A DNA stretch of 64,000 nucleotides from Escherichia phage vB_EcoM_Ozark, in the sequence record NC_054927.1. The stretch is one strand, 5' to 3'. This document shows positions 2,665 to 41,001 of this stretch, in pieces; within the stretch, counting starts at the first letter, position 1; every line of letters starts with the position of its first letter. The notes beneath the pieces were generated by a model, which was not told the origin of the DNA, searched no databases, and saw only the letters and a program-made list of their open reading frames with translations. Position numbers and translations under genes: made by a program.

Positions 2665-3680
2665 TGTGTTGCCTCTACATATAACTGATTTGCATATTGA
2701 ATAAGTGCTTCACGATCAGAATCAGTGATGTCTGGAATTGCATTAATATACTCTTCCATCAATGTCTGAAGCGATTGAACTTCAACTTCTTCACTGTCAT
2801 CTGACTCGACAGAGTTATCAATCTTTGACACAACTCGTAATGAATGCACAACTTTCTCTAGTTCAGATTCGAACTTCGTCAGATTTTTGTCTACTTCAGT
2901 TACTATAACACGTACTGATAGATTTGTAAAATCTTTATAGTCAATTTTTCCTTTGAATGGATAATGAATTCTACGATGCCAGGTAGTATTGTTTGGAATA
3001 AATTCCATTCGTTCTGTTTCTGTGTCAAACATCCAGAACCCACGAGGGTCATTCTCGTCACCTGCAGTTAGTGTCCATGGTGTCCCAATATATCTGACGT
3101 TTGCAGCCTCAGAAATAGTATGGAAGTGACCAGACCACACTTCTTTATAAGTCTTAAGGAAATCAGGTTCAAGACCATGAGATTTCATTCCTTTATAAAA
3201 ATAAAATCCGTTCAGTTCCCAGTGACCAACACAAAAAGAAGCAGATGAAGTTTTAATATGTTCAAGAATTTCACCAGTATTTTCTTCGCACATCCAAGGA
3301 ATTAAATCAATCAAACATCCGTCAAAATCTACTGTAGTAGGCTTATCATATACTTTAACATTAGGATATTTAGCCAAAAGCTCAGTAGAAGCATTTGGAG
3401 TTAAAGTATTTTTAAAGTGCATATCATGGTTTCCTACAATAGTATGTAGTGTAATACCAGCATCATCAAGCATTTGAACTATTTCACGAGCGAACTCCAT
3501 AGTTTTATGCGTGATTGCTTTTCGCACATCAAAAATATCGCCGTATTGAATCCATGTAGTAATTCCATTTTTCTTAGAATATTCTATTGCTTGTTTAATT
3601 CCATCCAACTGAATGGATTGAACCCACTCATCATCAGCTTTAACGCCTAAATGCCAATCACCTAAATTTAAAATTTTCAT
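2661..3680 (-). CDS. 47: Recombination nuclease subunit gp47 (Mre11/SbcD-like phosphoesterase)
   Basis: 339-aa ORF; calcineurin-like phosphoesterase motifs (LNLGDWHLG, QYGDIFD, GNHD, GHWE, GHFH); ATG start; adjacent to gene 46. Confidence 0.9.
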   Translation of the reverse strand: MKILNLGDWHLGVKADDEWVQSIQLDGIKQAIEYSKKNGITTWIQYGDIFDVRKAITHKTMEFAREIVQMLDDAGITLHTIVGNHDMHFKNTLTPNASTELLAKYPNVKVYDKPTTVDFDGCLIDLIPWMCEENTGEILEHIKTSSASFCVGHWELNGFYFYKGMKSHGLEPDFLKTYKEVWSGHFHTISEAANVRYIGTPWTLTAGDENDPRGFWMFDTETERMEFIPNNTTWHRRIHYPFKGKIDYKDFTNLSVRVIVTEVDKNLTKFESELEKVVHSLRVVSKIDNSVESDDSEEVEVQSLQTLMEEYINAIPDITDSDREALIQYANQLYVEATQ

Positions 3681-31569: not shown

Positions 31570-32043
31570 TTATTTGAACGATTTAACGTACTGAATAGAA
31601 CCTTTACTATTCACGAAAGCGATTTTACCATTTTTATTATACATGGTAGCAGTACGCTGATAGCCATAAGTTTGCTTACCAGATTGATAACCAACTAATG
31701 CAAAATTATCTTCACCCATTTTATTCTGTTTAGCGCGAATGCGTTCATGACCATGTGCCATAAGAACCTTAGCATCACCAGTTGCAATGGATCGACGAGT
31801 TTTTTCATCTTCAACTGTATTAACAAAGTCGTCAAATGAATCAAATTTAGCATGAGATTTATTATACAGTTTTCCATCTACTGCATAATTATATCCCTGT
31901 ACATCCATCTCAACTTCTGTACCATCATCCAATACAGCAGTGATTTTCTGTCCTTTTTTAAATTTCAAAAGATCAGTAAAAGATTCAGCAATAATTTGAG
32001 AATTAATAGCTGCTTCAGTAATAAATTCTTGATATGTTTTCAT
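31570..32043 (-). CDS. Internal-protein-like packaged protein with capsid-targeting sequence
   Basis: 157-aa ORF beginning MKTYQEFITEA, i.e. the T4 internal-protein capsid-targeting sequence with a protease-type L/I-x-E cleavage motif. Confidence 0.6.
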   Translation of the reverse strand: MKTYQEFITEAAINSQIIAESFTDLLKFKKGQKITAVLDDGTEVEMDVQGYNYAVDGKLYNKSHAKFDSFDDFVNTVEDEKTRRSIATGDAKVLMAHGHERIRAKQNKMGEDNFALVGYQSGKQTYGYQRTATMYNKNGKIAFVNSKGSIQYVKSFK

Positions 32044-32059
32044 GTGTATCCTTTAATTT

Positions 32060-32377
32060 TTATTCTTTAGGGAAGTTTTTAGAATATGCATCATAAAGCT
32101 TATTTCCAATACGGCGGAAAACTCTAGCCGCAAAACGATTTTCTGGGTTTTTAATCATGATTTGCATCATATAAGTACCCGCGTCAGAAAGAGCTTCTTC
32201 ATAGTACCCGTTAATTTCTTTAAGAGTCCTACGTTTACCACCAGGACCATCAACAGTGATTTTCCATTTACCTGTAGAAGTGCGACTTGGCGGCTCAACT
32301 TGTTCAATCCAGATATAACCGCCTTCTACACGTTGTCCTTGGGCAGATTCTGCAATAAATTCTTTAAACGTTTTCAT
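32060..32377 (-). CDS. Internal-protein-like packaged protein with capsid-targeting sequence
   Basis: 105-aa ORF beginning MKTFKEFIAES; early-promoter element immediately upstream. Confidence 0.6.
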   Translation of the reverse strand: MKTFKEFIAESAQGQRVEGGYIWIEQVEPPSRTSTGKWKITVDGPGGKRRTLKEINGYYEEALSDAGTYMMQIMIKNPENRFAARVFRRIGNKLYDAYSKNFPKE

Positions 32378-32411
32378 ATGGTTCCTTTAAATATTTTAAT
32401 TAGTAACTATG

Positions 32412-35657: not shown

Positions 35658-35984
35658 TTATTTCATATTATTGAAATGTTCTTCTGCAATTTCGTCGTTA
35701 TCATGGTAAACTTTAGAAGACAGTTTAACATAACCTTCAGCAGTGAACATGTTAATCACAACCTTTACAGTATACCACTGACCATCTTCATTACCCATTA
35801 CTGCATAGGTTTCAAACATCGGATGATCAGGACCGATAACTTTAATATCATTCACTGTACGACCAAAATCTTCTGAAACACATTTCATAAAGAAGTTGAA
35901 CAGTTCGCCGTAATTATCCATTTCATTCTCCAAGTTGTTTTCTGTATCAGTAGTTGATAGTTGTATAGTACCATGGAAGGACAA
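35658..35984 (-). CDS. Hypothetical acidic protein
   Basis: 108-aa ORF directly downstream of an early promoter and conserved leader. Confidence 0.4.
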   Translation of the reverse strand: MSFHGTIQLSTTDTENNLENEMDNYGELFNFFMKCVSEDFGRTVNDIKVIGPDHPMFETYAVMGNEDGQWYTVKVVINMFTAEGYVKLSSKVYHDNDEIAEEHFNNMK

Positions 35985-35996
35985 GGATGTAAACAG
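35963..35996 (-). promoter_or_regulatory. Early promoter with conserved leader
   Basis: Minus strand GTTTAC...TGG-TACTATAC-AACTATCAACTAC. Confidence 0.5.
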
Positions 35997-36125: not shown

Positions 36126-36155
36126 CCAAAAAGCCCCAACCTTTCGGTCGGGGCT
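36126..36155 (-). terminator. Terminator hairpin downstream of the 36163-36636 gene
   Basis: GCCCCGACCGAAAGGTTGGGGC hairpin with G-U pair followed by a short T-run; near-identical to the 36685 copy. Confidence 0.5.
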
Positions 36156-36162
36156 AAGAATG

Positions 36163-36636
36163 TTATTTGATTTGTTTAGCAGACCAAATGCGGTCTTTAA
36201 TAATTTTTTGGATGTCTTCAACATACTCAAGAGAGTGAGCATGTGGGTTATCTTTAAAACTATAAGCACGAGCTAACTTTTGACCTTCAGTTTTGATTAC
36301 TAAAAGCTCTTTAAGGATAGCTTCATATCTGGAGATAATTCCTTTAACAATATTTTTTTCTTGTGTAGCTTTAGGATCTGCTTTAGGAGCAGGTTTACCC
36401 GAAGCCTTTGCAAAAGCAGCGCCAGTAGCAACTAAACTTTTCCAGGCCATACTAACTGCATTCCCTGTAAATCCTTCGGCTTTCATATCACGAGCAAATT
36501 GGAATCGTGATTCATCGGAAGCATCTTTATAGGAATATTTACCCGCGGCAATGGCTGCTTTTGCGACAGCTTGAATTTCGGTGCTAGACGCTTCATTTAA
36601 CACCGCTTCATTTAAAAATTGAGTATATGATTTCAT
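36163..36636 (-). CDS. Putative packaged protein with capsid-targeting-like N-terminus
   Basis: 157-aa ORF beginning MKSYTQFLNEA (compare MKTYQEFIAEA); Ala/Lys-rich; flanked on both sides by near-identical terminator hairpins. Confidence 0.45.
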   Translation of the reverse strand: MKSYTQFLNEAVLNEASSTEIQAVAKAAIAAGKYSYKDASDESRFQFARDMKAEGFTGNAVSMAWKSLVATGAAFAKASGKPAPKADPKATQEKNIVKGIISRYEAILKELLVIKTEGQKLARAYSFKDNPHAHSLEYVEDIQKIIKDRIWSAKQIK

Positions 36637-36684
36637 CTTATTTCCTGTTTTAATTCGTGAATTTAATATACTAATATTTATACT

Positions 36685-36712
36685 AAAAAAGCCCCAACCT
36701 TTTGGCTGGGGC
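36685..36712 (-). terminator. Terminator hairpin at the distal end of the tRNA/stable-RNA operon
   Basis: GCCCCAGCCAAAAGGTTGGGGC hairpin followed by TTTTTT on the minus strand. Confidence 0.55.
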
Positions 36713-36764
36713 TAAGCCTTGCGGCAACCTTGTCGGGGTTCCACCTGCTAAGGCAAGTGTTTGT

Positions 36765-36856
36765 ACGAAACGCCGGGATTCGAACCCGGTTATTAAGTAG
36801 TTGACGCTACTCAATATTTTTAAAAGGCCATATCTCAACCATATCCGAACGTTCCG
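36765..36856 (-). ncRNA. tRNA-like stable RNA (acceptor and T-arm present, no canonical anticodon arm found)
   Basis: T-arm CCGGG-TTCGAAT-CCCGG and a 7-bp acceptor pairing found by hand; ~92 nt; anticodon stem-loop could not be folded canonically; position corresponds to where T4 carries small stable RNAs downstream of tRNA-Arg. Confidence 0.3.
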
Positions 36857-37029
36857 TCAAAAACGCTACTCGGCTTACGGCAAAGATATTTCCTCGAATC
36901 GATAATTCGGTGCGCCGTTTCTGCTGTGATATAAGGGGGCATTAACAAAACATAAAGATTTATTAATGCCAGTCCTTAAACAGGGAACATCAGTCCGACG
37001 ACTTGCCGGTAGCGACCCGGCTTCTTGTC

Positions 37030-37105
37030 TGGTCGAGGCAGTAGGGATCGAACCTACGACCCAGGACTTAGAAGGTCCTTGCTCTTCCTTCTGAGCTATG
37101 CCCCG
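37030..37105 (-). tRNA. tRNA-Arg (anticodon UCU)
   Basis: Hand-folded cloverleaf: acceptor CGGGGCA/TGCCTCG, D-stem GCTC, anticodon loop CTTCTAA, T-loop TTCGATC, CCA encoded. Confidence 0.8.
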
Positions 37106-37109
37106 TAAT

Positions 37110-37185
37110 TGGGGTGACCGATGGGAGTCGAACCCATGACTACGAGAATCACAATCTCGAGTTCTACCAACTGAACTACGGCCAC
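37110..37185 (-). tRNA. tRNA-His (anticodon GUG)
   Basis: Hand-folded: acceptor 7 bp, anticodon stem CGAGA/TCTCG with loop TTGTGAT, T-loop TTCGACT, discriminator C, CCA encoded. Confidence 0.7.
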
Positions 37186-37299
37186 ATTAATACCTACTCC
37201 AATAATCAAGATGTCTTCACACGAAATTAAGAGAAGAGTGATCAGTTCAACCCCTATAATCGCGTCAAGTAGATATTAATGTGACAGTTGTCACAAATT

Positions 37300-37374
37300 T
37301 GGCGGACGTGATAGGATTCGAACCTATAACCAATCGCTTAACAGGCGATCGCTCTGCCATTGAGCTACACATCC
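37300..37374 (-). tRNA. tRNA-Asn (anticodon GUU)
   Basis: Hand-folded: anticodon stem ATCGC/GCGAT, loop CTGTTAA, T-loop TTCGAAT, CCA encoded. Confidence 0.75.
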
Positions 37375-37378
37375 AAAT

Positions 37379-37465
37379 TGGTGGGGAGTGGTGGAGTCGA
37401 ACCACCCGAGTCGCAATGACAATGGATTTACAGTCCACACCGCTACCTCTACGGGATAACTCCCC
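37379..37465 (-). tRNA. tRNA-Tyr (anticodon GUA), long variable arm
   Basis: Hand-folded: exact 7-bp acceptor GGGGAGT/ACTCCCC, anticodon loop CTGTAAA, ~15-nt variable arm, T-loop TTCGACT, CCA encoded. Confidence 0.7.
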
Positions 37466-37478
37466 TTAATTCTTAATT

Positions 37479-37553
37479 TGGTGGCCCTGGGTGGAATTGA
37501 ACCACCATCTGGCGATTATGAGTCGCTTGCTTGAACCTTCCAGCTACAGGGCC
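37479..37553 (-). tRNA. tRNA with anticodon CAU (elongator Met or Ile with modified C34)
   Basis: Hand-folded: exact acceptor GGCCCTG/CAGGGCC, anticodon loop CTCATAA, T-loop TTCAATT, CCA encoded. Confidence 0.7.
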
Positions 37554-37554
37554 T

Positions 37555-37630
37555 TGGTGCTGATTGACGGAATCGAACCGCCGACCTTCTCATTACAAGT
37601 GAGTTGCTCTACCTACTGAGCTAAATCAGC
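37555..37630 (-). tRNA. tRNA-Thr (anticodon UGU)
   Basis: Hand-folded: exact acceptor GCTGATT/AATCAGC, anticodon loop CTTGTAA, T-loop TTCGATT, CCA encoded. Confidence 0.75.
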
Positions 37631-37635
37631 AAAAC

Positions 37636-37725
37636 TGGCGGAGGCGATAGGATTTGAACCTATGAGTCGCCGGAGCGACTGCCGGTTTTCAAGACCGGTG
37701 CATTAAACCACTCTGCCACGCCTCC
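37636..37725 (-). tRNA. tRNA-Ser (anticodon UGA), long variable arm
   Basis: Hand-folded: exact acceptor GGAGGCG/CGCCTCC, anticodon stem CCGGT/ACCGG with loop CTTGAAA, variable-arm hairpin GTCGC/GCGAC, CCA encoded. Confidence 0.8.
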
Positions 37726-37727
37726 AG

Positions 37728-37801
37728 TCTCCATACAAGGATTTGAACCTTGGACCTCCTGATCCCAAATCAGGCGCTCTACCAAACTGAGCTACACGGA
37801 G
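37728..37801 (-). tRNA. tRNA-Pro (anticodon UGG)
   Basis: Hand-folded: anticodon stem CCTGA/TCAGG, loop TTTGGGA, T-loop TTCAAAT; CCA not encoded. Confidence 0.75.
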
Positions 37802-37811
37802 TAAATTAAAT

Positions 37812-37885
<74 letters not shown>

Positions 37886-37890
37886 AAATT

Positions 37891-37977
37891 TGGTGCGAGA
37901 AGTGGGACTCGAACCCACAAGGAAATCATTCCGCAGCATTTTAAGTGCTGTGCCTTTACCAATTTGACCATTCTCGC
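37891..37977 (-). tRNA. tRNA-Leu (anticodon UAA), long variable arm
   Basis: Hand-folded: exact acceptor GCGAGAA/TTCTCGC, anticodon stem CAGCA/TGCTG with loop CTTAAAA, T-loop TTCGAGT, CCA encoded. Confidence 0.8.
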
Positions 37978-37983
37978 GTTATA

Positions 37984-38592
37984 TTATTTATTACGTGAAA
38001 AAGACTGTTCTATCAATTCTGGACACTTTCGTTCTATCCATTTTCTAGCTTTTTGTGGGCTTATACCTATTATTTTAGCAGCTTTACTAACCCATCCAAA
38101 TTTAGAATAATCGATTTTAACTAATTCTTCGTAAATTTCATCAGTTAAAATCTTTTCATTAATATTTACCAGTAAATGATATAATTTGTTATCATTAGCA
38201 ATTTTAATGAATCTTTTATAGTTTCCGCCTTTACTTAAACCTAATGAAGTAATTGCAGATGATATAGTAGCCGAATTTAATAATGCGTTTAAAATTTCTT
38301 CATCACTAACATTATAACGCTTTTTATTATTTTTAATATTTTTACCAGCAAAAGTATCAGTTTGCGAATGACAGTTTGGACATAATAATCTTAAATTTGA
38401 TTTAAGATGATTTTTGTTATTTCCATCAATATGGTCTAATTGCAGAACAATATGCTTATTTTGCCATTTTGAAATTTTACAAATTGCACACTCATATGGA
38501 AAAATATTTTCTTTTATTATTTTGTCTTTCAGCTTTCCTGTACTAAAATTTGGATGTTTTCCTTCAAAAATTTCAGCTAATTTAGTATCCAT
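37984..38592 (-). CDS. HNH-family homing endonuclease abutting the tRNA cluster
   Basis: HNH/zinc motif LQLDHIDGNNKNHLKSNLRLLCPNCH plus CAIC; ORF track begins at TTG (38616), first ATG at 38592 gives 202 aa; stop lies 6 nt from the tRNA-Leu 5' end. Confidence 0.65.
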   Translation of the reverse strand: MDTKLAEIFEGKHPNFSTGKLKDKIIKENIFPYECAICKISKWQNKHIVLQLDHIDGNNKNHLKSNLRLLCPNCHSQTDTFAGKNIKNNKKRYNVSDEEILNALLNSATISSAITSLGLSKGGNYKRFIKIANDNKLYHLLVNINEKILTDEIYEELVKIDYSKFGWVSKAAKIIGISPQKARKWIERKCPELIEQSFSRNK

Positions 38593-38702
38593 AATATGAT
38601 TCCCAATTATTAACAAAGGCTCTCAAGCAAGAACCCTTGATGATAGAGGGTATTAATCAGTGCGATATGAGTTAATAATAACAAATAATTCTTAAAGCAT
38701 AT

Positions 38703-39580: not shown

Positions 39581-39623
39581 TTGATAGGGTAATAGTATCA
39601 CTACCCTATCTAAAAGTAAACTT
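39581..39623 (-). promoter_or_regulatory. Early promoter / stem-loop cassette
   Basis: -10 element TGATACTAT embedded in the loop of a gataggg/ccctatc inverted repeat; GTTTAC -35 at 39616-39621. Confidence 0.45.
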
Positions 39624-39855
39624 ATTTTTTACGAAAAATTGATTTATTTTCTGCTGCCCATTTTTCAATAACTGCAGCAGGACCAGTAACAACAATTTTA
39701 TCACCGTAATCTTCTGCAGCGAGTTGACCGAAATTATCTAATGCATCACGAAGAACTCCATGAGGCATTTCGCCCATTTTATCCTTCTTGCCAATGTAAA
39801 TAAACTCAACTTTTACATCAACAGCTTCAGCAATAAATTCTTGATATGTTTTCAT
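39622..39855 (-). CDS. Internal-protein-like packaged protein with capsid-targeting sequence
   Basis: ORF track begins at GTG (39873); the ATG at 39855 gives a 77-aa protein starting MKTYQEFIAEA, the canonical internal-protein capsid-targeting sequence; early promoter upstream. Confidence 0.55.
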   Translation of the reverse strand: MKTYQEFIAEAVDVKVEFIYIGKKDKMGEMPHGVLRDALDNFGQLAAEDYGDKIVVTGPAAVIEKWAAENKSIFRKK

Positions 39856-39888
39856 TTTATTCTCCAATTTCACATTTGTTTTGATAGG

Positions 39889-39923
39889 GTAATAGTATCA
39901 CTACTAAAACCCCGTGTAAACAA
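39889..39923 (-). promoter_or_regulatory. Early promoter upstream of the MKTYQEFIAEA internal-protein gene
   Basis: Minus strand GTTTAC-N15-TGA-TACTAT; shares extended flank (ttgatagggtaatagtatcactac) with the 39581 copy. Confidence 0.5.
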
Positions 39924-39940
39924 CTTTGTGAAATTGTTTA

Positions 39941-40231
39941 TTACAAAAGATTTTTAGCAATAATCTTGAGATGTGCTGCAGAAATGTGTTTAGCTTTAAA
40001 CAACGCAGTTTCTTCGGCAGGAGAGATAACGATTGTAGCACCATCCTTTTTAGCAGACCACCCATCACCTAGGTAAACAGTACCTTTGATTTCTTCGCCA
40101 TCAACCAGACTAATCATTGGTTTACCTTCTCGTCCTTTATTTGCTTTAATAACTTCAGAAGTAAGAGTAGCTTCGGTAATGGTAGAAACCGGGGTAGTTG
40201 TAGTAGAAGTAAATTCTTTAAATGTTTTCAT
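39941..40231 (-). CDS. Putative packaged protein with capsid-targeting-like N-terminus
   Basis: 96-aa ORF starting MKTFKEF followed by a Thr-rich segment and ITE-A protease-type site; promoter/stem-loop cassette upstream. Confidence 0.45.
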   Translation of the reverse strand: MKTFKEFTSTTTTPVSTITEATLTSEVIKANKGREGKPMISLVDGEEIKGTVYLGDGWSAKKDGATIVISPAEETALFKAKHISAAHLKIIAKNLL

Positions 40232-40251
40232 TTTTATTTTCCTAATTAATT

Positions 40252-40294
40252 TTGATGAGGTAATAGTATCACTACCTCATCAGTATGTAAACAA
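40252..40294 (-). promoter_or_regulatory. Early promoter / stem-loop cassette
   Basis: -10 element within the gatgagg/cctcatc inverted repeat; GTTTAC -35 at 40287-40292. Confidence 0.45.
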
Positions 40295-40304
40295 CTTTGT
40301 GAAA

Positions 40305-41001
<697 letters not shown>

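What the first reader, a model, noticed from the sequence alone, without database searches (positions are those of the whole stretch)
36126..36712. Single-gene cassette bracketed by two near-identical terminator hairpins
The 157-aa ORF 36163-36636, with the capsid-targeting-like N-terminus MKSYTQFLNEA, is flanked by almost the same hairpin, aaaaagccccaacctttcggtcggggctaag at 36126-36158 and aaaaaagccccaaccttttggctggggctaag at 36685-36714. Duplicated regulatory elements on both sides of one gene suggest a mobile or shuffled module carrying a packaged protein.
Basis: seen in the sequence. Interest (0 to 1): 0.55.

Follow-up and report, generated by a model that had tools for sequence, protein, structure and literature searches.

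The report
Terminator-flanked internal-protein gene cassette in T4-like phage
In a T4-like phage, one small late gene that probably encodes a protein packed into the virus head sits between two copies of the same transcription terminator, and related phages have gained or lost it exactly at that terminator; this kind of cassette shuffling is already known, but this gene family and site have not been recognised as part of it.

Summary
Two 31-nt copies of one hairpin (28/31 identical; 36128-36158 and 36686-36716) bracket a 157-aa ORF on the minus strand (36636-36163). Both copies score as intrinsic terminators, and they are the only two copies in the window.

The window is a Tequatrovirus. The slot lies between the tRNA-rnaD-rnaC cluster and gene e.8. 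T4, T2 and PST have this slot empty, with one hairpin whose flanks match the window's outer flanks. RB14, RB32, Shigella phage A2 and others carry one or two cassettes, each joined at a hairpin.

Each cassette has the form terminator, TATAAATA late-promoter motif, ORF, terminator. The ORFs start with MK[ST]Y.[EQ]FL.E, which keeps the four residues that matter in the T4 capsid targeting sequence. That motif occurs only four times in the window's six-frame translation; the other three start ORFs at the two known Ip loci (two match internal-protein PHROG or Ip4 families).

The family (phrog_2280) is labelled "unknown function" and has no Pfam or fold match.

The flanking repeat is already noted in the RB32 GenBank record, and cassette shuffling at Ip loci has been described before (Repoila 1994; PeSLs). 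What looks new is a probable third Ip locus and a new Ip family. Packaging and any anti-defence role are inferred, not shown.

The parts
36764..36902 (-). rnaC (species 1 RNA), last gene of the tRNA-rnaD-rnaC unit. This is context: it is the upstream anchor of the slot.
   Evidence: 100% identical over 139 nt to the annotated T4 rnaC. rnaD maps to 36909-37025. Ten tRNAs lie at 37030-37977.
36686..36716 (-). Upstream copy of the 31-nt repeat. It is the intrinsic terminator hairpin of the tRNA/rnaC unit (stem-loop 36713-36690, then T6).
   Evidence: The single T4 counterpart is annotated 'pot. stem-loop structure; pot. terminator' in X03016. The equivalent site is annotated as a terminator in phage NBG2.
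36675..36682 (-). TATAAATA, the T4 late-promoter consensus. It starts 2 nt after the terminator's T-tract and lies 38 nt upstream of the ATG.
   Evidence: It is conserved at the same position in 14 of 16 cassette-bearing relatives, with AATAAATA in the other two. The string GGGGCTTTTTAGTATAAATA is kept verbatim in the Jiaodavirus KpV477. Whether it works as a promoter is inferred.
36642..36646 (-). Shine-Dalgarno-like AGGAA, 5 nt before the ATG.
   Evidence: Read from the sequence.
36163..36636 (-). ORF157, a phrog_2280 family member. Residues 1-10 or 1-15 form a CTS-like propeptide with two L-N-E|A sites. Residues 18-78 form a variable helical domain, 79-92 a Pro/Lys linker, and 93-157 a conserved helical hairpin.
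36592..36636 (-). Codons 1-15 (MKSYTQFLNEAVLNE), the putative capsid targeting sequence and gp21 cleavage sites. It includes the 12-nt repeat pair (36589-36600 and 36604-36615, spaced 15 nt) of a 15-nt tandem duplication.
   Evidence: CTS residue roles are taken from PMC9026906.
36128..36158 (-). Downstream copy of the 31-nt repeat. It is the terminator of the ORF157 transcript (stem-loop 36155-36132, then T5). Its sequence is identical to the single hairpin of T4, T2 and PST.
35965..35993 (-). Sigma-70-type early-promoter-like site (TTTACA-17-TACTAT with TG) for e.8. It lies outside the repeat and is the downstream anchor of the slot.
   Evidence: It is conserved in T4, T2 and RB14.
35658..35921 (-). 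Gene e.8. This is context: it is the conserved downstream neighbour.

Best explanation
This is a self-contained late-gene cassette in a hyperplastic region of a T-even phage, between the tRNA/rnaD/rnaC unit and e.8.

How it is read (minus strand). The terminator of the stable-RNA unit is followed within 2 nt by a late promoter (TATAAATA). Then come a ribosome-binding site, a 157-aa ORF and a second copy of the same terminator. The e.8 early promoter follows that. The two terminators insulate the gene from its neighbours.

How it is shuffled. The two copies also form a direct repeat of about 31-36 bp. The phage's own homologous recombination can cross over in this repeat. That can delete the gene precisely, leaving one hairpin as in T4, T2 and PST. 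It can also swap or stack cassettes between co-infecting relatives, as in RB14 and Shigella phage A2.

What the protein probably does. It is most likely a new, unannotated internal (Ip-type) head protein. Its N-terminal CTS-like leader would target it to the prohead scaffolding core. The prohead protease gp21 would cut after Glu10 and/or Glu15 (L-N-E|A). The basic mature protein would then be packed with the DNA and injected. By analogy with Ip1-3 it probably blocks a host defence, possibly a GmrSD-type type IV restriction enzyme, using its variable N-terminal domain.

Shown versus inferred. Shown here: the anatomy, the repeat, the presence/absence junctions, the motif specificity and the family distribution. 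Inferred: promoter and terminator activity in vivo, packaging, cleavage, injection and the target.
For: - Repeat and terminators. One compensatory C-G to G-C change appears among 11 hairpin variants, and 89% of cells are paired against at most 68% in slid controls.
- Empty-site junctions. T4, T2 and PST have one hairpin. Its upstream flank matches the window's upstream copy and its downstream flank matches the window's downstream copy.
- Combinatorial states of the slot were seen in 20 loci: empty, [157], [187], [157][187], and ORF184 (which lacks the CTS motif) with ORF205 or with an ORF157-type gene. Each CTS ORF follows TATAAATA or [AG]ATAAATA; in the closer Tequatrovirus-type loci each is also followed by a scored terminator.
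- Lateral exchange. ORF187 is at least 95% identical in 164 of 165 records. One of these is PhAPEC2, whose ORF157 ortholog is only 75% identical. Between L010 and L011, nucleotide identity falls from 95-98% to about 60% exactly at the upstream hairpin.
- CTS. MK[ST][YF]x[EQ]F[ILVT]xE occurs 4 times in the six-frame translation of the window, against 0 in 50 shuffles. The hits are IPI, an Ip4 homolog, a 105-aa ORF in the ipII/III locus, and ORF157. Residues 4 and 7 (targeting) and 8 and 10 (processing) are Y, F, L and E (PMC9026906).
- The leader and an L-x-E-A site are kept across phrog_2280 members that share only 24-40% identity.
- The protein is basic (pI 9.5, 13% Lys), like the known Ips (PMC9026906).
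- In the AF2 model the leader is a separate helix followed by a low-confidence stretch at residues 13-17.
- Ip1-3 each inhibit a distinct GmrSD enzyme and share only the leader (PMC12373910).
- T4 recombination needs less than 50 bp of homology, and repeat-flanked cassettes form mini-circles (PMC2839356).
Against: - There are no virion proteomics, cleavage or injection data for any member of the family.
- Databases call the family hypothetical or 'unknown function'.
- It lies outside the two loci that the literature recognises as Ip loci.
- A virion MS study of two Jiaodaviruses lists no hypothetical protein above 15 peptide-spectrum matches. Peptides of the Klebsiella homolog were not found in the held supplement text. 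That text is truncated, and I could not confirm that those phages carry the gene.
- TATAAATA is not enriched in the window overall: 11 found against 10.2 expected. Its significance therefore rests on position and conservation alone.
- The downstream mosaic boundary between lineages lies inside the ORF, not at the hairpin, so hairpins are not the only crossover points.
- The hairpin core also occurs in unrelated phages, so part of the similarity between the two copies could be functional convergence.
- No fold or domain match suggests any activity.
Confidence: 0.6

Rival explanations
1. The cassette structure is real, but the protein is an ordinary late cytoplasmic or accessory protein that is not packaged. 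Its N-terminus would resemble the CTS only because the 5' ends of small T-even genes are exchanged by recombination, or share an ancestral leader that no longer functions.
For: No virion evidence exists. The family is annotated as hypothetical everywhere. It lies outside the two recognised Ip loci. At the known Ip loci the 5' coding region and the RBS are themselves part of DNA repeats, so leaders can travel as recombination homology. No hypothetical protein was abundant in Jiaodavirus virions.
Against: The leader survives in family members that have diverged to 24-40% identity, and in lineages where the adjacent N-terminal domain is only about 63% identical. That argues for selection on the peptide. 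All four experimentally mapped positions are kept. The ORF157 leader is only about 70% identical at the DNA level to the ipI leader (my own base count, 23 of 33, from the sequences), so it is not a recent copy. The motif occurs nowhere else in the six-frame translation.
Confidence: 0.28
2. The two hairpins are independent terminators that look alike through convergence on one strong design (a G+C stem with a GNRA-like loop). They would not be a duplication, and recombination at them would be incidental.
For: The same 27-nt core, GCCCCG(G/A)CCGAAAGGTTGGGGCTTTTT, occurs with unrelated flanks in IMG/VR contigs of roughly 5-40 kb (several are 37-39 kb) and in a 251-kb contig.
Against: The similarity extends beyond the stem-loop, into CTTA on the 5' side and GTAT after the T-tract. 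The GACC and AGCC variants swap between the upstream and downstream positions in different phages, as expected from exchange between copies. Every empty or single-cassette genome is exactly the product of a crossover between two copies. The RB32 annotators independently recorded a 34-bp imperfect direct repeat.
Confidence: 0.08
3. The cassette is an actively mobile element. It would excise as a mini-circle and re-insert site-specifically at terminator hairpins by means of a dedicated DNA-binding or recombinase activity, so that it can move between loci and between phages.
For: PeSL-flanked ORFs form encapsidated mini-circles in RB49 and phi1. Those authors speculate that a protein recognises the GGGG...CCCC stem-loop (PMC2839356). 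ORF187 is nearly identical across divergent backgrounds.
Against: No recombinase or endonuclease lies in or next to the cassette. There is one place per genome in all 510 records, and every locus inspected places it in the same syntenic region, including a Jiaodavirus. Only two hairpin copies occur in 64 kb. General T4 recombination on about 31-36 bp of homology is sufficient to explain the data.
Confidence: 0.1

Closest known systems
Polymorphic internal-protein (Ip) cassettes of T-even phages (Repoila et al. 1994 EMBO J 13:4181; Ip1-Ip3 as GmrSD inhibitors, Bair et al. 2007 and Silas et al. 2025, PMC12373910)
   Same: These are small, non-essential genes that vary by presence or absence. They have a conserved N-terminal leader (MKTYQEFIAE-like) and an L/I-x-E cleavage site but otherwise unrelated sequences. 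They are bracketed by repeated regulatory DNA. RB32's Ip7/Ip9 are 'flanked by 43 bp direct repeat', and the window's own ipI locus has 41-85-nt repeats. The proteins are basic.
   Different: The location differs: rnaC-e.8 rather than the ipI locus or the ipII/ipIII locus, which the 2025 literature calls 'the two Ip loci'. The protein family is phrog_2280, 'unknown function', and is not homologous to Ip1-5, 7 or 9. The repeated element is a bare terminator, not a promoter-plus-stem-loop or the coding leader. Packaging has not been demonstrated.
PeSLs, promoter-early stem-loop regulatory cassettes that mediate modular shuffling (Arbiol et al. 2010, PMC2839356; Comeau et al. 2014, PMC4122927)
   Same: GGGG...CCCC terminator stem-loops flank single ORFs in hyperplastic regions. 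Indels between close relatives have junctions in the repeats. Transcriptional insulation makes insertion and deletion harmless. The proposed mechanism is homologous recombination between short repeats.
   Different: The repeat here contains no sigma-70 early promoter. The upstream copy abuts a late promoter, and the early promoter of e.8 lies about 130 nt beyond the downstream copy, outside the repeat. There are only two copies per 64 kb rather than a dispersed family. Mini-circles were not tested.
RB32ORF133c (YP_803075) in Escherichia phage RB32, NC_008515
   Same: It is the ortholog: 157 aa, with only a few substitutions (compare), in the same slot. Its GenBank note reads 'flanked by 34 bp imperfect direct repeat'.
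   Different: It is annotated only as a hypothetical protein. No CTS, Ip assignment, terminator role or comparison with empty sites is recorded.
Terminator downstream of rnaC in the T4 tRNA region (GenBank X03016 feature 'pot. stem-loop structure; pot. terminator')
   Same: The sequence is identical to the window's downstream copy and sits in the same position relative to rnaC as the upstream copy.
   Different: T4 has a single copy, with no gene between it and the e.8 promoter.

Membership tests
T4-type internal (Ip) proteins, i.e. CTS-bearing packaged proteins | An N-terminal capsid targeting sequence: aromatic residues at positions 4 and 7 (targeting), and L/I at position 8 with Glu at position 10 (gp21 processing) | tested here: met
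   In MKSYTQFLNE the residues are Y4, F7, L8 and E10, with a second L-N-E|A site at residues 13-16. The residue roles come from PMC9026906. The motif is found only at IPI, the Ip4 homolog, a 105-aa ORF in the ipII/III locus, and this ORF in 64 kb, against 0 in shuffles.
T4-type internal (Ip) proteins, i.e. CTS-bearing packaged proteins | Physical presence in the virion, removal of the propeptide by gp21, and injection with the DNA | not testable with these tools
   No proteomic data were found for any family member. The Jiaodavirus virion MS study was uninformative or weakly negative.
T4-type internal (Ip) proteins, i.e. CTS-bearing packaged proteins | Late expression, so the protein is present during prohead assembly | tested here: inconclusive
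   TATAAATA lies 38 nt upstream of the ATG and is conserved in relatives. The motif is not enriched genome-wide, and no transcript data are available.
T4-type internal (Ip) proteins, i.e. CTS-bearing packaged proteins | Sequence homology to a named Ip family, or location in one of the two described Ip loci | tested here: not met
   The family is phrog_2280, 'unknown function'. There is no similarity to Ip4 beyond the leader (E = 3.6). The known Ips fall in other PHROGs. The locus is rnaC-e.8.
T4-type internal (Ip) proteins, i.e. CTS-bearing packaged proteins | Non-essential, with presence/absence polymorphism among close relatives | tested here: met
   The gene is absent from T4, T2 and PST and present in 510 phage records.
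PeSL (promoter-early stem-loop) shuffling cassettes | A composite repeat that contains a strong sigma-70-like early promoter plus a stem-loop terminator | tested here: not met
   The repeat covers only the stem-loop, the T-tract and a few flanking bases. A late promoter follows the upstream copy. The early promoter lies about 130 nt past the downstream copy and is not repeated.
PeSL (promoter-early stem-loop) shuffling cassettes | Repeats flank ORFs whose insertion or deletion distinguishes closely related phages | tested here: met
PeSL (promoter-early stem-loop) shuffling cassettes | Formation of circular excision products joined at the repeat | not testable with these tools
   This requires inverse PCR on infected cells, the method used in PMC2839356.
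Intrinsic (Rho-independent) terminator | A G+C-rich stem-loop followed by a U-tract on the transcribed strand, with the stem maintained in evolution | tested here: met
   There is one compensatory pair, and 89% of cells are paired against at most 68% in slid controls. Others have annotated it as a terminator. In vivo termination was not tested.
Autonomous mobile element (transposon, MITE or homing-endonuclease cassette) | Encodes or borrows a transposase or endonuclease, has terminal inverted repeats or a short target duplication, and occurs at multiple genomic sites | tested here: not met
   The single ORF has no enzyme domain. The flanks are 31-nt direct repeats. There is one place per genome in all 510 records, and the region is syntenic in every locus inspected across genera.

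The most novel reading that the evidence does not exclude
The rnaC-e.8 slot is a third, so far unrecognised internal-protein locus of Tevenvirinae. On this reading, phrog_2280 (the ORF157, ORF187 and ORF205 subfamilies, present in more than 500 sequenced phages across several genera) is a new family of packaged, injected proteins. Its variable N-terminal domain would track host defences, for example further GmrSD-type restriction variants not covered by Ip1-3. Its 'terminator + late promoter' boundary element would be the late-gene counterpart of PeSLs, acting as the joint for cassette exchange.
Probability: 0.45. Interest if true: 0.55.

Novelty: new member of a known kind. Interest (0 to 1): 0.38.

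Why it matters
Ip1, Ip2 and Ip3 of T4 were recently shown each to disarm a different GmrSD-type restriction enzyme, and the field currently speaks of 'the two Ip loci' (PMC12373910). A third locus would extend this in two ways. It carries a widespread, unannotated CTS-bearing family that T4 itself lacks. It would also give ready candidates for new injected anti-defence proteins.

The experiment is simple. Add ORF157 or ORF187 to T4, or delete it from RB32 or RB14, and plate on wild E. coli or on GmrSD panels.

The locus also shows how a bare terminator can double as a recombination joint, allowing late-gene cassettes to be stacked or dropped without disturbing neighbouring transcription. If the protein turns out not to be packaged, what remains is an ordinary example of known hyperplastic-region shuffling.

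Tried and rejected
- Function from sequence or structure. Pfam gave no hit and PHROGs gave only 'unknown function'. The AF2 model (pLDDT 73, all-helical) had no significant match in the PDB. In BFVD it matched only its own family. An exhaustive profile search found only 13 cluster representatives, all phage-type.
- Homology to Ip4, which is also 157 aa, was rejected (E = 3.6).
- Rfam found only tRNAs. No family covers the hairpins, rnaC or rnaD.
- Counting empty against filled sites with a 120-nt junction query failed as a census, because the tool joins the two half-matches into one place. That search gives only a rough indication from its 40-row sample that empty sites are a minority. The states were established instead from 20 individually inspected loci.
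- Only 10 IMG/VR loci carry e.8, so the unbiased sample is small.
- Literature. Repoila 1994 and Bair 2007 are not held. No paper mentions RB32ORF133c. Petrov 2010 does not discuss it.
- Virion proteomics. The Jiaodavirus MS paper lists no abundant hypothetical protein. Peptides of the Klebsiella homolog were not found, but the held supplements are truncated and the phage genomes are not in the searchable collection. This is inconclusive.
- A transposon, MITE or homing-element reading was rejected (see membership test).
- Pure convergence of the two hairpins was considered because the core recurs in unrelated phages. It was rejected for this locus because of the shared flanks and the clean junctions.
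Full report
**1. Observation**

The region was read directly. A 157-aa ORF lies on the minus strand at 36636-36163 and starts MKSYTQFLNEAVLNEASS. It is bracketed by two copies of a 31-nt sequence, at 36128-36158 and 36686-36716, which are 28/31 identical.

At up to 3 mismatches these are the only two matches in the 64-kb window. None of 100 dinucleotide-preserving shuffles produced a match.

On the minus strand both copies are 10-bp stems with 7 G-C pairs, a 4-nt loop and a T5-6 tail. They are the two strongest terminator-like sites in the 32-42 kb region. They fold at -20.3 and -19.8 kcal/mol, z = -4.4 and -2.8.

**2. Context**

The window is a Tequatrovirus: 761 phage records match the region, the best at 97.7% identity. 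All genes in this area are on the minus strand. In the direction of transcription the order is:

- an Ip-type 96-aa ORF and ipI;
- trna.4, trna.3 and trna.2;
- an HNH-like ORF;
- ten tRNAs;
- rnaD (37025-36909) and rnaC (36902-36764, 100% identical to T4);
- the upstream hairpin;
- TATAAATA at 36682-36675 and AGGAA;
- ORF157;
- the downstream hairpin;
- an early-promoter-like site, TTTACA-17-TACTAT, at 35993-35965;
- e.8.

**3. Comparison with relatives**

T4 has e.8 and rnaC separated by 284 bp with no gene between them. It has one hairpin. The downstream flank of that hairpin equals the flank of the window's downstream copy, and its upstream flank equals the flank of the window's upstream copy. 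T2 and PST are the same.

I inspected 20 loci in all. The slot occurs in these states:

| State of slot | Phages or loci |
|---|---|
| Empty | T4, T2, PST |
| ORF157 type alone | window, NBG2, RB32, vB_Eco_EL, KMB26, L008, L009, L012 |
| ORF187 alone | RB14 |
| ORF157 + ORF187 | Shigella phage A2, L010, L011, L016 |
| ORF184 + ORF205, or ORF157 type + ORF184 (more distant relatives) | L013-L015, L017 |

Every CTS-type ORF is preceded by TATAAATA or [AG]ATAAATA about 35-45 nt upstream of its ATG. In the closer (Tequatrovirus-type) loci each is also followed by a scored terminator hairpin. In the more distant loci the same hairpin family marks several of the boundaries. In RB14 the junction is again the hairpin: an rnaC flank upstream and the 'middle-copy' tail downstream.

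The GACC and AGCC stem variants sit in the upstream copy in some phages and in the downstream copy in others. The more distant lineage carries GGCCC...GGGCC in place of GCCCC...GGGGC. This is a compensatory change, and the stem stays 89% paired against at most 68% for slid controls.

The architecture extends to the Jiaodavirus KpV477, including the verbatim GGGGCTTTTTAGTATAAATA joint, although there the two flanking hairpins differ from each other.

**4. Evidence for exchange**

ORF187 occurs in 165 phage records, 164 of them at 95% identity or more. These include PhAPEC2, whose ORF157 ortholog is only 75% identical to the window's.

Between L010 and L011, nucleotide identity is 93-100% through rnaC. 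It falls to about 55-70% exactly at the upstream hairpin and recovers to above 90% only inside the 3' half of ORF157. It then stays at 90-100% through ORF187. The hairpin therefore marks one mosaic boundary. The other boundary lies within the gene, so the hairpins are preferred joints but not exclusive ones.

**5. The protein**

ORF157, ORF187 and ORF205 all belong to phrog_2280, 'unknown function'. All 60 records listed from the 510 that carry ORF157 homologs call it hypothetical or simply 'phage protein'.

There is no Pfam hit. The family is tiny in sequence space, with 13 representatives among 1.84 billion. It is nevertheless spread over several Tevenvirinae genera.

The peptide motif MK[ST][YF]x[EQ]F[ILVT]xE occurs four times in the six-frame translation of the window, against zero in 50 shuffles. 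Each hit is the start of a minus-strand ORF: IPI, an Ip4 homolog, a 105-aa ORF next to Ip4, and ORF157.

According to the review of Black's work (PMC9026906), CTS residues 4 and 7 carry targeting and residues 8 and 10 carry processing. ORF157 has Y, F, L and E at those positions. A second L-N-E|A site at residues 13-16 comes from a 15-nt tandem duplication. Propeptides of 10-19 residues are normal for Ips.

The leader and an L-x-E-A site are retained in members that share only 24-40% identity. Between lineages the following domain (residues 18-78) is 63% identical, while the C-terminal helical hairpin is 94% identical.

The mature protein is basic, with pI 9.5 and 13% Lys. The AF2 model is all-helical (pLDDT 73), with the leader as a separate helix and low confidence at residues 13-17. 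No fold match was found. Ip4, which has the same length, is unrelated beyond the leader.

**6. What is already known**

The RB32 GenBank record annotates the ortholog RB32ORF133c as 'flanked by 34 bp imperfect direct repeat', and Ip7/Ip9 as 'flanked by 43 bp direct repeat'. The T4 hairpin is annotated as a potential terminator in X03016, and the two copies are annotated as terminators in NBG2.

Repoila et al. 1994 described polymorphic Ip cassettes with conserved leaders and flanks. That paper is not held; I know it only as cited in PMC4122927 and PMC12373910. Arbiol 2010 and Comeau 2014 described PeSL-mediated shuffling, including mini-circles. The window's own ipI locus shows PeSL-like repeats of 41-85 nt bracketing ipI and the 96-aa Ip.

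Silas et al. 2025 showed that Ip1, Ip2 and Ip3 each inhibit a distinct GmrSD enzyme. They refer to 'the two Ip loci'.

**7. Interpretation**

The best-supported reading is a terminator-insulated late-gene cassette whose duplicated terminator also serves as about 31-36 bp of homology for the phage's recombination system. This explains the precise loss in T4, T2 and PST and the stacking or replacement in other phages.

The protein is most likely a new Ip-type packaged protein. Its anti-defence function is inferred only by analogy.

It is not a PeSL in the strict sense, because the repeat holds no early promoter and there are only two copies. It is not an autonomous mobile element, because it has no enzyme and occupies one syntenic site.

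The hairpin core recurs in unrelated phage contigs. The core alone is therefore a convergent strong-terminator design. The case for a common origin here rests on the shared flanks and the clean junctions.

**8. Weak points**

- Packaging, cleavage, promoter and terminator activity and the target are all untested.
- A Jiaodavirus virion proteome gave no support. Table 3 of that paper lists no hypothetical protein above 15 PSM. Peptides were not found in the truncated supplements, and I could not verify that the gene is present in those phages.
- The census of slot states rests on 20 loci plus database counts, not on a full survey.

**9. Verdict**

Novelty: a new member of a known kind. The repeat itself is already recorded. 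Assigning this family and slot to the Ip system appears to be new.

Interest is moderate. The finding supplies concrete candidate injected anti-defence proteins and a clean natural example of terminator-mediated cassette exchange.

Noticed in passing
window 39581-39621, 39881-39921, 40252-40292 (extended copies 39855-39939 and 40226-40310): Three copies of a 41-85-nt direct repeat bracket ipI (39855-39622) and a 96-aa Ip-type ORF (40231-39941, phrog_4363). Each copy holds a stem-loop (GATAGGGTAATAGTATCACTACCCTATC-like) and an early-promoter-like GTTTAC...TACTAT. They resemble PeSLs and show the same cassette logic at the classical ipI locus.
   Followed up: partly
window 32009-32061 and 32343-32395; ORFs 32043-31570 and 32377-32060: An Ip4 homolog (157 aa, Pfam DUF7412) and a 105-aa CTS-bearing ORF lie side by side. 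They share a 53-nt repeat that covers the RBS and the CTS codons, so at this locus the leader itself is the repeated DNA.
   Followed up: partly
window 36589-36600 and 36604-36615: A perfect 12-nt repeat spaced 15 nt apart lies inside ORF157. It reflects a 5-codon duplication that yields two L-N-E|A sites. Some relatives (L009, L011, L012) have only one site.
   Followed up: partly
window 37984-38616 (-) and the tRNA cluster 37030-37977: A 210-aa ORF with a weak HNH match (17.3 bits, below the Pfam cut-off) abuts tRNA-Leu, where T4 and NBG2 have tRNA-Gln. The window has tRNA-His, Asn, Tyr and Met but lacks tRNA-Gln and tRNA-Ile. segB is absent from its T4 position.
   Followed up: partly
window 37186-37299: A 114-nt spacer separates tRNA-His from tRNA-Asn, much longer than the 1-13-nt spacers elsewhere in the cluster. 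Neither ARAGORN nor Rfam finds anything in it.
   Followed up: no
L004 1923-2273, L003 2603-2953, L019 7003-7353: A 116-aa ORF (phrog_3355, unknown function) is inserted between rnaD and tRNA-Arg in vB_Eco_EL, Shigella phage A2 and T2. It is absent from the window, T4 and RB32. This is a second indel site a few hundred bases away.
   Followed up: partly
L021-L025, L028, L029, L033-L035, L037 (IMG/VR contigs of about 6-39 kb), L031 (251 kb), L032: The same 27-nt stem-loop core, GCCCCG(G/A)CCGAAAGGTTGGGGCTTTTT, occurs with unrelated flanks in other phage contigs. In L032 it sits next to a second, similar hairpin. This looks like convergence on one strong terminator design.
   Followed up: partly
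L018 about 2995-3530 (Klebsiella phage KpV477): The Jiaodavirus homolog carries an in-frame TAA and is annotated as two CDS, whereas 100%-identical-length homologs in other Klebsiella phages are intact (177 aa). It is either a pseudogene or a sequencing error.
   Followed up: no
L013 and L015 (ORF at slot positions about 70-630), L014, L017: In the more distant relatives the slot also holds a 184-aa ORF (phrog_2143, hydrophobic N-terminus, no CTS motif). The slot is therefore not reserved for CTS proteins.
   Followed up: partly
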